From the NCBI GenBank assembly GCA_964016885.1, contig OZ024742.1, positions 152,768,001-152,832,000 of the forward strand: a stretch of 64,000 bases of DNA, written 5' to 3'. Both the position numbers and the translations under genes were made by a program. This DNA comes from Eledone cirrhosa. Lineage: Eukaryota. The notes below the pieces were generated by a model. The model was not told where the DNA came from. It saw only the letters and a program-made list of their open reading frames with translations, and did not search any database. Shown piece after piece: positions 2,130-2,510 of the stretch (its first letter is position 1; each line of letters opens with the position of its first letter).

Positions 2130-2510
2130 TAGAATTGTTGTTCTGAAATAGCTATATATATATGAATGTATATATAGTGTATTTTGCAATACACTGTATG
2201 CTTAATAAAAAACATTTTGAAGACCTTATGCTATTGTTTTAGAGTAGTGACAGACTCACTTACTTTAATTTCAGCAAACAGGGGGAGATAAAGCTGACAA
2301 GGCCTTATTTCTGCATTTATTGATGCTTATCAAAGCCAACTACTCCTCCCGTTTTGGCTTTGATAAGCATCAATAAATGCAGAAACAACTTGTTTGCTGA
2401 AATTAAAGTAAGTGAGTATGTCACTACTCTAAAACAATAGCATAAGGTCTTCAACATGCTTTTTATTAAGCATACAGAGTATTGGAAAATACACTATATA
2501 TACATTCATA
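2130..2510. mobile_element. Fold-back pair of inverted pLTRs (family A; also 28650-29225, tail piece 5548-5585)
   Basis: Arms ~2153-2339 and ~2354-2510 are diverged reverse complements; each carries an HHR motif (right one truncated). Confidence 0.8.
2292..2337 (-). ncRNA. Type I hammerhead motif with U3-A8 core
   Basis: GGCT-TTGATAA-GCAT-caataa-ATGC-a-GAAA-TAAG-GC-CTTG-TC-AGCT. Confidence 0.6.

What the first reader, a model, noticed from the sequence alone, without database searches (positions are those of the whole stretch)
2292..2387. Family A hammerheads carry a compensatory U3-A8 core (TTGATAA) in all four copies
Seen: copies at 2292, 2356, 28781 and 29017 all read TTGATAA instead of CTGATGA. 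Their consensus keeps stem II GCAT/ATGC, GAAA, stem III CAG-GGCC-CTG, a GTC cleavage triplet and stem I GGCT/AGCT. Known: positions 3 and 8 form a tertiary Watson-Crick pair and U3-A8 is a rare tolerated variant. Inference: this is selected covariation rather than decay, and standard CUGANGA searches would miss it.
Basis: partly seen in the sequence, partly recalled or inferred. Interest (0 to 1): 0.75.

Follow-up and report, generated by a model that had tools for sequence, protein, structure and literature searches.

The report
Retrozyme hammerhead that swapped its core
These are copies of a 319-base jumping repeat, present thousands of times in this animal genome, that carries a motif predicted to cut its own RNA; its unusual U-A core pair is already published, but here related subfamilies record the switch from the usual C-G pair and the likely compensating changes that followed.

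Summary
TTGATAA is in all four copies, but they are two mirror-arm insertions of one 319-nt repeat family, so they are not independent evidence. Two of them carry an extra A before GAAA, one lacks the cut site and one has GUU. Genome-wide, over 2,300 copies read U3-A8. Homologous sister subfamilies and a distant 310-nt relative read C3-G8, while mismatched cores are scattered single copies. With the core columns removed, the U3-A8 subfamilies form one clade (99/96). Within it, stems I, II and III went on changing by paired substitutions and the other ten core positions stayed fixed. This supports a selected compensatory swap, not decay. Cleavage itself is untested. The element fits a non-LTR retrozyme: tandem units, (TA)n targets, and two fixed Penelope-type ends. 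U3-A8 is published for Penelope hammerheads (2014) and for natural hammerheads (2011), and the scan noted what is probably this family elsewhere in the genome. What this adds is the traceable switch, and a mobile sub-lineage with an extra A between C11.1 and G12, gained and later lost. The flagged 2292/2356 pair belongs to it.

The parts
2128..2354 (-). Insertion 1, long-tail arm: unit positions 95-319 of the 319-nt repeat, ending in (TA)n; extra-A sub-lineage (K)
2292..2337 (-). Type I hammerhead copy 1: U3-A8 core 2333-2327, stem II 2326-2313, extra A at 2312, GAAA 2311-2308, GUC 2298-2296; predicted cut between 2296 and 2295
2354..2518 (+). Insertion 1, short-tail arm: unit positions 110-295 with an internal deletion, ending in (TA)n
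2356..2389 (+). Hammerhead copy 2, truncated: U3-A8 core 2360-2366, stem II 2367-2380, extra A at 2381; 3' arm of stem III, cut site and 3' strand of stem I deleted
28642..28880 (-). Insertion 2, short-tail arm: unit positions 58-295, subfamily A1
28781..28825 (-). Hammerhead copy 3: U3-A8 core 28821-28815; triplet GUU instead of GUC; G15.4>U
28881..29232 (+). Insertion 2, long-tail arm: more than one unit (295-319, then 1-319), crossing the unit junction; subfamily A1
28993..29083 (+). Extended hammerhead domain of copy 4: outer helix I 28993-29006 with 29070-29083; minimal motif 29017-29061; U3-A8 core 29021-29027; GUC 29055-29057; stem I G1.2>U
5549..5589 (-). 41-nt fragment of the same repeat (unit 318-39), without the hammerhead

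Best explanation
The four motifs are copies of a type I hammerhead fold, predicted to self-cleave, in a 319-nt non-coding repeat that is likely a non-LTR retrozyme copied by Penelope-type enzymes, and their U3-A8 core pair is a lineage-wide compensatory replacement of C3-G8 that likely stayed under selection. Shown by sequence: the unit, its subfamilies, both core states, paired stem changes, and tandem and two-armed insertions in (TA)n with two fixed ends about 24 nt apart. Inferred steps: (1) a transcript spanning more than one unit cuts itself after GUC, probably as a dimer through the palindromic stem III or with protein help, because the lone monomer is predicted to fold into an inactive rod. 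(2) The unit-length RNA is circularised. (3) A Penelope endonuclease nicks both strands of a (TA)n tract, and its reverse transcriptase starts at the two internal sites and runs round the RNA; the two cDNAs join head to head. (4) Only RNAs with a working core found new subfamilies, so the 3-8 pair changed once to U-A and stayed. An extra A before G12 was tolerated for a long stretch of the lineage, probably as a bulge, and was then lost.
For: Core states (counts are lower bounds). U3-A8: 99 of the first 100 of 300, 91 of the first 100 of 1,882, 100 of the first 100 of 356. C3-G8 in homologous units: 86 of the first 100 of 136 and 97 of the first 100 of 153; consensus distance to the U3-A8 subfamilies is 7-25%. 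Mismatches: 14 U3-G8 spread over four subfamily types. Tree without columns 3 and 8 (53 rows, up to 4 per subfamily): U3-A8 rows are one side of a branch, 99/96. The 310-nt outgroup has C3-G8 and shares U10.1-U11.1 with the basal subfamily H. On 14 real copies, one per subfamily, 98.4% of cells pair and 9 of 14 pairs change on both sides, including 3-8; 0 of 500 shuffles reach this, and slid controls pair 19-43%. Core invariance: 0 of 10 positions vary among 14 consensuses against 50 of 82 other domain positions (Fisher p 2e-4), while the free position N7 takes U, G or C. Fold z-scores are -5.5 to -6.6. Mobility: 62 of 67 two-armed insertions with both standard ends have one end near unit position 295 and the other near 319; 184 of 216 standard ends abut TA-type repeats. 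166 of 216 arms run through the cut site. Arms of one insertion share private variants in 18 of 55 cases against 52 of 1,562 control pairs. Literature: two internal start sites bounding a 'tail' (PMC11167929); natural U3-A8, active in vitro by citation (PMC3088659); U3-A8 in Penelope hammerheads (PMC4209133).
Against: No cleavage, transcript or circle was observed. 5' ends do not pile up clearly at the cut site: 5 of 253 arms start there (Poisson p 0.0014), but two are one insertion, one is an internal deletion, the site is a 4-nt palindrome, and positions 207 and 236 have as many. Core invariance is not significant against the unit outside the hammerhead domain (47 of 183 variable, p 0.12). 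The extra-A lineage stayed mobile across three nested well-supported nodes, so core selection is not absolute. Mismatched cores occur in both units or arms of single insertions (L247, L258, L076) and at three A3 loci, so such RNAs can be inserted. In one mutagenesis study only the G3-C8 swap rescued activity (PMC9901934). Hammerhead mutants did not affect Penelope insertion in vitro, and 8 of 9 Xenopus retrozyme dimers did not cleave. The root rests on one long-branch outgroup row. Rows are related and were chosen as nearest to consensus, and several subfamilies were fetched with patterns that fix core and stem II letters (they were first seen in core-independent lists). No autonomous Penelope partner was identified. 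Arms could share variants by later gene conversion.
Confidence: 0.75

Rival explanations
1. The RNA shape is selected but cutting is dispensable. The rod or hammerhead-like fold serves as a binding or stability signal for the Penelope protein, templates are uncut tandem transcripts, and U3-A8 is a nearly neutral double transition carried along by the winning lineage.
For: The predicted lowest-energy fold is an inactive rod in which the segment ending U3-U4-G5 pairs with the 5' arm of stem III. cDNAs run through the cut site. The extra-A lineage thrived. Hammerhead mutants do not block insertion in vitro. Both changes are transitions towards A/T.
Against: Pairs 2.1-1.1 and 2.2-1.2, which exist only in the hammerhead fold, change on both sides. 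No unpaired 3-8 subfamily was seen in the rows listed. A9, G12, A13, A14 and C17 stay fixed although unpaired in the predicted rod, while the loop II letters and N7 vary.
Confidence: 0.17
2. Variant-core lineages, above all the extra-A one, are poor cutters processed in trans by pairing, through the shared stem III palindrome, with RNAs of a sister subfamily that has a regular core.
For: The extra-A lineage keeps the same 12-nt palindrome as A2 (A2 self-duplex -19.5 kcal/mol). Dimer cleavage is the published model for these ribozymes. The extra A was later lost.
Against: A stem I compensatory swap was fixed inside the extra-A lineage, which suggests selection on its own fold. A recalled in vitro selection study (Thomson 1996; only its title was seen) reported that an extra non-G base at this place is tolerated. 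This cannot explain U3-A8 itself, which is the majority state.
Confidence: 0.05
3. Decay: the U3-A8 copies are dead remnants spread as DNA (satellite or duplication), and the 3-8 match is coincidence.
For: Each window copy has a lesion. Some arrays did expand as DNA satellites with damaged cores (7 of 32 units with G5>C in L268; A3 in 5 units of the L168 array).
Against: U3-A8 is the consensus of eleven subfamilies with median divergences of 1.7-7% from their own consensus. Copies are dispersed with reverse-transcription-type ends. Paired stem changes continued after the switch.
Confidence: 0.03

Closest known systems
U3-A8 minimal hammerheads of Cercyon Penelope-like elements, Schistosoma mansoni (Cervera and de la Pena 2014, PMC4209133; parts 1-2 of 4 read)
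   Same: Same U3-A8 core covariation (about 1,300 hits there); type I topology; palindromic stem III; pairs of motifs on opposite strands 100-700 bp apart.
   Different: Here helix II is 4 bp with no base between 9 and 10.1, stem III is a 10-13-nt palindrome, helix I has a long outer extension, and the carrier is a 319-nt non-coding unit. C3-G8 and U3-A8 subfamilies of one lineage can be ordered on a tree.
Metazoan non-LTR retrozymes (Cervera and de la Pena 2020, PMC7229834, passages and section 14 read; Li et al. 2026 preprint 10.64898/2026.07.22.740005, parts 1-3 of 5 read)
   Same: About 300-nt low-GC unit with one type I hammerhead, monomers to multimers, no coding capacity evident, co-occurring with Penelope-type debris.
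   Different: U3-A8 core; mostly two-armed inverted insertions with two fixed ends; circular RNA not shown here; no pLTR partner found.
Natural hammerhead core variants (Perreault et al. 2011, PMC3088659; section 8 and passages read)
   Same: U3-A8 covariation and U10.1-U11.1 mismatch are both listed as natural variants.
   Different: An insertion between 11.1 and 12 is not named in the section read (its figure and supplements were not seen).
Poseidon element PAc of Anolis (Frangieh et al. 2024, PMC11167929; main text read)
   Same: Both DNA strands nicked in AT-rich DNA; two internal reverse-transcription starts bounding a short tail; hammerhead that needed protein to cleave.
   Different: PAc is autonomous with a C3-G8 core; its tail is 30-40 nt by the cited Penelope data, against about 24 nt here.
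Hammerhead with a bulged base between stem II and G12 from in vitro selection (Thomson et al. 1996, NAR 24:4401; only the citation was seen, content recalled)
   Same: As recalled: an extra A, C or U before GAA is active but less efficient, which matches the extra-A lineage.
   Different: Laboratory selection in a C3-G8 core; here it is natural and combined with U3-A8.

Membership tests
Hammerhead ribozyme (type I) | Three helices round the core, open at helix I | tested here: met
   98.4% of cells paired, 9 of 14 pairs change on both sides; constrained fold is compatible in all 14 consensuses
Hammerhead ribozyme (type I) | Conserved core U4 G5 A6, A9, G12 A13 A14, A15.1-U16.1, H17 | tested here: met
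   0 of 10 positions vary among 14 subfamily consensuses; not met in window copies 2 (deleted) and 3 (GUU is an allowed but recalled-as-poor triplet)
Hammerhead ribozyme (type I) | Watson-Crick pair between positions 3 and 8 | tested here: met
   U-A in 11 and C-G in 3 of 14 subfamilies; outgroup C-G
Hammerhead ribozyme (type I) | G12 directly follows C11.1 | tested here: inconclusive
   Met in the 14 consensuses; not met in the extra-A lineage, which includes window copies 1 and 2; effect on activity unknown
Hammerhead ribozyme (type I) | Score above an Rfam hammerhead gathering threshold | tested here: not met
   HH9 21 bits, E 0.0078, threshold 52, on an intact copy
Hammerhead ribozyme (type I) | Site-specific self-cleavage | not testable with these tools
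   Needs an in vitro assay
Non-LTR retrozyme | Short non-coding unit (about 170-400 nt) with one type I hammerhead, in tandem copies | tested here: met
   319-nt period in L008, L012, L013, L168, L184; about 317 nt in L268
Non-LTR retrozyme | Dispersed high copy number | tested here: met
   3,374 matches to a 25-nt anchor; 2,320 against 40 control matches to another
Non-LTR retrozyme | Expressed as unit-length linear and circular RNA | not testable with these tools
   Only contig runs of unrecorded kind were offered; indirect support from arms longer than one unit
Penelope-dependent element | Two fixed 3' ends (tail) and AT-rich targets | tested here: met
   62 of 67 pairs with one end of each kind; 184 of 216 ends at TA-type repeats
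Penelope-dependent element | Homology to the pLTR of an autonomous RT/GIY-YIG element | not tested
   No dedicated search was run; no shared ORF-bearing flank was noticed in the junctions printed

The most novel reading that the evidence does not exclude
This family is a genomic fossil record of ribozyme core evolution under selection for mobility. G10.1-C11.1 was acquired first, then C3-G8 switched to U3-A8 as stem III became a perfect palindrome; in that context U3 weakens the inhibitory rod helix by about 3 kcal/mol. A natural double variant (U3-A8 plus a bulged A before the general base G12) then stayed active and mobile for a long branch before reverting. Resurrected subfamilies would show context-dependent core tolerance and would test directly whether retrozymes need self-cleavage to move.
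Probability: 0.3. Interest if true: 0.65.

Novelty: new variant of a known kind. Interest (0 to 1): 0.42.

Why it matters
Whether Penelope and retrozyme hammerheads cut in vivo, and whether cutting is needed for spread, is open: published in vitro rates are low and one study found cleavage dispensable. A lineage with both core states, rare intermediates and a dated series of compensatory changes is good comparative evidence that the catalytic fold is under selection. It also supplies natural matched constructs (H, G2, G, C, A1, A2, extra-A, J1) for the test. More than 2,300 motifs here escape CUGANGA patterns and Rfam thresholds, so ribozyme counts in such genomes are too low. The U3-A8 variant itself is not new.

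Tried and rejected
Rfam on the whole window was swamped by TA-repeat microRNA hits, and the repeat finder likewise. Expression: no RNA holder listed; the runs laid were contigs of unrecorded kind and cannot show RNA ends. One contig of organism B (depth 4) shows J-type paired stem changes and no listed change at positions 3 or 8, but two rows were hidden and it is a single contig, so I give it little weight. A pile-up of 5' ends at the cut site was not established. RNA-editing scars: A>G 206 of 20,886 against T>C 151 of 19,731, about 1.3-fold, too weak to use. A U3-G8 or C3-A8 intermediate subfamily was not found. One search's pattern barred C at its last place, which excludes typical E-, F- and G-type copies, so an intermediate there is not fully excluded. 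The idea that the extra A is private to the window locus was rejected. My first reading of the extra-A lineage as rare (17 hits) was also wrong: the pattern barred C at its last place, which all 11 unselected neighbouring arms have. The same flaw makes an undercount. The predicted benefit of U3 for the active fold holds in F, E, C, D, B, A1 and A12 (about 3 kcal/mol), is slight in J1, and reverses in A2, A3 and J2, so it can explain the origin at most. Papers not held: Przybilski and Hammann 2007, Lunse et al. 2017, Thomson et al. 1996; these may already describe some of these variants. No supplements were read. No search for the autonomous partner was made.

Full report
Observation. TTGATAA lies at 2333-2327 (-), 2360-2366 (+), 28821-28815 (-) and 29021-29027 (+). 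The 7-mer alone is at chance level (20 seen, 26.6 expected). All four are followed by stem II GCAT/ATGC and belong to one repeat. They are the two arms of each of two head-to-head insertions in (TA)n, 2128-2518 and 28642-29232. Copy 1 has an extra A before GAAA and C15.2>U. Copy 2 has the extra A and lacks the cut site. Copy 3 has GUU. Copy 4 has a broken stem I pair. So the four copies alone prove nothing about covariation.

The element. The window lies in a 3.0-Gb genome. The label 'cephalopod' comes from earlier scan notes and my own guess, not from a test. The window holds retroelement debris: a GIY-YIG piece at 21747-22085 and an RT piece at 43532-44440 hit Pfam, 2 of 6 ORFs tested. The repeat unit is 319 nt, in monomers, tandem runs and inverted pairs. 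A 25-nt anchor matches 3,374 times and another 2,320 times against 40 control matches. The hammerhead is type I. Helix I continues into a 14-bp outer stem, and A15.1 to U16.1 is a palindrome. Fold z-scores are -5.5 to -6.6 for three copies. Rfam HH9 hits an intact copy at the right place but far below threshold (21 bits, E 0.0078).

Core states genome-wide (all counts are lower bounds; only the first 100 rows are listed). With positions 3, 7 and 8 free, the window's subfamily gives 300 matches, and 99 of 100 listed are U3-A8. CUGANGA with this stem II gives 0. Other stem II types give 1,882 matches, of whose first 100 rows 91 are U3-A8, 6 C3-G8, 2 U3-G8 and 1 C3-A8, and 356 matches, 100 of 100 listed U3-A8, 18 of them in one array. 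Fixing C3 gives 136 matches, 86 C3-G8 and 14 C3-A8 in the first 100. A further pattern gives 153 matches, 97 of 100 listed C3-G8. Fixing U3-G8 gives 14, spread over subfamilies (this pattern misses typical E-, F- and G-type copies). In loci L090-L189, taken from core-independent anchors (three of them picked because they were C3-type), 117 arms gave 93 U-A, 10 C-G, 6 A-A (5 in one local array) and 8 others, several of them junctions. The C3-G8 copies are the same 319-nt unit, 7-25% from the U3-A8 consensuses.

History. 255 near-full units were sorted into 14 subfamilies; 2 mis-registered rows were dropped and 2 rows of a 310-nt relative served as outgroup. That relative (L234, about 35% distant) has C3-G8 and a U10.1-U11.1 mismatch, like subfamily H. 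With columns 3 and 8 removed, the 40 rows of U3-A8 subfamilies are one side of a branch (99/96), nested among C3-G8 rows when rooted on the outgroup (53 rows, one long outgroup row). The order is H (U-U at 10.1-11.1), G2 (A-U), G (G-C), then the switch. After it, stem II went GUAC/GUAC, GCAC/GUGC, GCAU/AUGC, GCUU/AAGC. Stem I changed 2.2-1.2 C-G to U-A (F) and 2.1-1.1 U-A to C-G (A3, J). Stem III changed two pairs, once through a G-U state. On 14 real copies, 98.4% of cells pair and 9 of 14 pairs change on both sides, with 0 of 500 shuffles as high (related rows, chosen near consensus). Ten core positions never vary, against 50 of 82 others in the domain (p 2e-4), while N7 varies. Against the rest of the unit (47 of 183) the contrast is not significant (p 0.12).

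The extra-A lineage. The A between C11.1 and G12 is not private. One search lists 17 family hits, a strong undercount because the pattern barred the usual last letter. The insertion is in contigs of three runs of one sample at about 3% of summed depth. 1 of 23 A/J-type arms in core-independent loci has it. My rough estimate is 100-200 copies, by inference only. On a tree of 64 rows without that column, 27 extra-A rows arise from A2, persist through nested nodes of 97/91, 100/99 and 98/94, acquire the stem I swap, and give rise to A3 and J, which lack the A. Holding them as one clade is rejected (p-AU 4.7e-5). Recombination between templates could mimic part of this: the same stem I swap occurs in a pre-A1 branch (L266, L267). 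Window copy 1 falls in this lineage. This cuts both ways: core selection is not absolute, or the bulge is tolerated. I recall an in vitro selection reporting such tolerance (Thomson 1996; only the citation was seen).

How it moves. Of 261 arms, 216 have standard 3' ends near unit position 295 or 319, and 184 of these abut TA-type repeats. Of 90 head-to-head pairs, 67 have two standard ends, and 62 have one of each. This matches the Penelope tail made by two internal start sites and nicking of both strands (PMC11167929). 166 of 216 arms pass through the cut site and 27 pass it twice, so templates were circles or uncut multimers. Arms of one insertion share private variants in 18 of 55 cases against 52 of 1,562 controls, which fits one template or later conversion. 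5' ends show no convincing peak at the cut site.

Folding. The predicted lowest-energy monomer fold is an inactive rod. The active fold lies 1.3-7.9 kcal/mol above the ensemble, tertiary contacts ignored, and stem III self-duplexes reach -9 to -24 kcal/mol. Dimer or protein-assisted cleavage is therefore the likely route, as published for Penelope hammerheads. In the subfamilies just after the switch, C3 would strengthen the inhibitory helix by about 3 kcal/mol, a possible reason for U3. The effect reverses in A2, A3 and J2.

Against the reading. Nothing here shows cleavage or RNA. Mismatched cores were inserted at least occasionally. One saturation study rescued only the G3-C8 swap (PMC9901934, passages). 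Penelope insertion in vitro did not need cleavage. 8 of 9 Xenopus retrozyme dimers did not cleave.

What is known. Natural U3-A8 was reported in 2011 (PMC3088659, section 8) and in about 1,300 Schistosoma Penelope hammerheads in 2014 (PMC4209133). Non-LTR retrozymes are described (PMC7229834; 2026 preprint). Eight paper searches listed no paper on this family, on a C3-G8 to U3-A8 switch traced within one lineage, or on a natural insertion between 11.1 and 12. Three key papers were not held and no supplements or figures were seen. The scan itself noted a U3-A8 retrozyme of about 320 nt in this genome, and two-armed retrozymes of other sizes.

Verdict. A real, probably functional, published core variant in a retrozyme-type family. 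The added value is the ordered evolutionary series and the extra-A lineage. New variant of a known kind; interest 0.42.

Noticed in passing
window 2312 and 2381; L269-L285 except L280; L146: Sub-lineage with an extra A between C11.1 and G12, gained after A2 and lost before A3 and J; it includes the flagged pair.
   Followed up: yes
L234:81-1010 (G000:C1, about 184.381 Mb): Near-identical tandem 310-nt retrozyme-like units, homologous to this family at about 65%, with C3-G8, U10.1-U11.1, a minimal stem III and a GUA triplet; used as outgroup.
   Followed up: partly
L280 (G000:C3:229633299): Single copy with G-like flanks and a 5-nt loop II but a U3-A8 core and an extra G before GAAA; possibly transitional or recombinant.
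   Followed up: no
L268 (G000:C3:114925000-114934999): J2-type satellite array with a period of about 317 nt and higher-order repeats; 7 of 32 units have G5>C, so it likely expanded as DNA.
   Followed up: partly
L168 (G000:C1, about 82.39 Mb) and L184: Older multimer arrays with decayed cores; A at position 3 is shared by 5 units in L168.
   Followed up: partly
window 1900, 12636, 15708, 47153 (+), 46068 (-); also CTGANGA...GAAA at 7201, 25701, 26384 (+) and 4234, 11432, 36786, 37469 (-): Other hammerhead-like motifs with canonical C3-G8 cores, several in inverted pairs; probably pLTRs of other Penelope families.
   Followed up: no
window 19971-22088 (+), 43529-45908 (-), 10140-10874 (+), 38265-41397 (-), 33359-33892 (-), 24167-24475 (+): Broken retroelement ORFs that look Penelope-like by eye; Pfam confirmed GIY-YIG at 21747-22085 and RVT_1 at 43532-44440 (2 of 6 tested).
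   Followed up: partly
window 18496-18881, 31163-31692, 45971-47250, 11347-12365, 34325-36840: Further inverted-arm repeats flanked by (TA)n, probably two-armed insertions of other families.
   Followed up: no
window 52904-54236 and 54497-54748: 46-bp minisatellite (29 copies, 95% alike) next to an 84-copy GAA repeat.
   Followed up: no
G000:C1:414465030, C2:192088791, C3:2786385, C4:323464886, C6:1405167, C6:41003118: An unrelated hammerhead-like family with a C3-G8 core and an extra base between stem II and GAAA appeared, so such insertions may recur in this genome.
   Followed up: no
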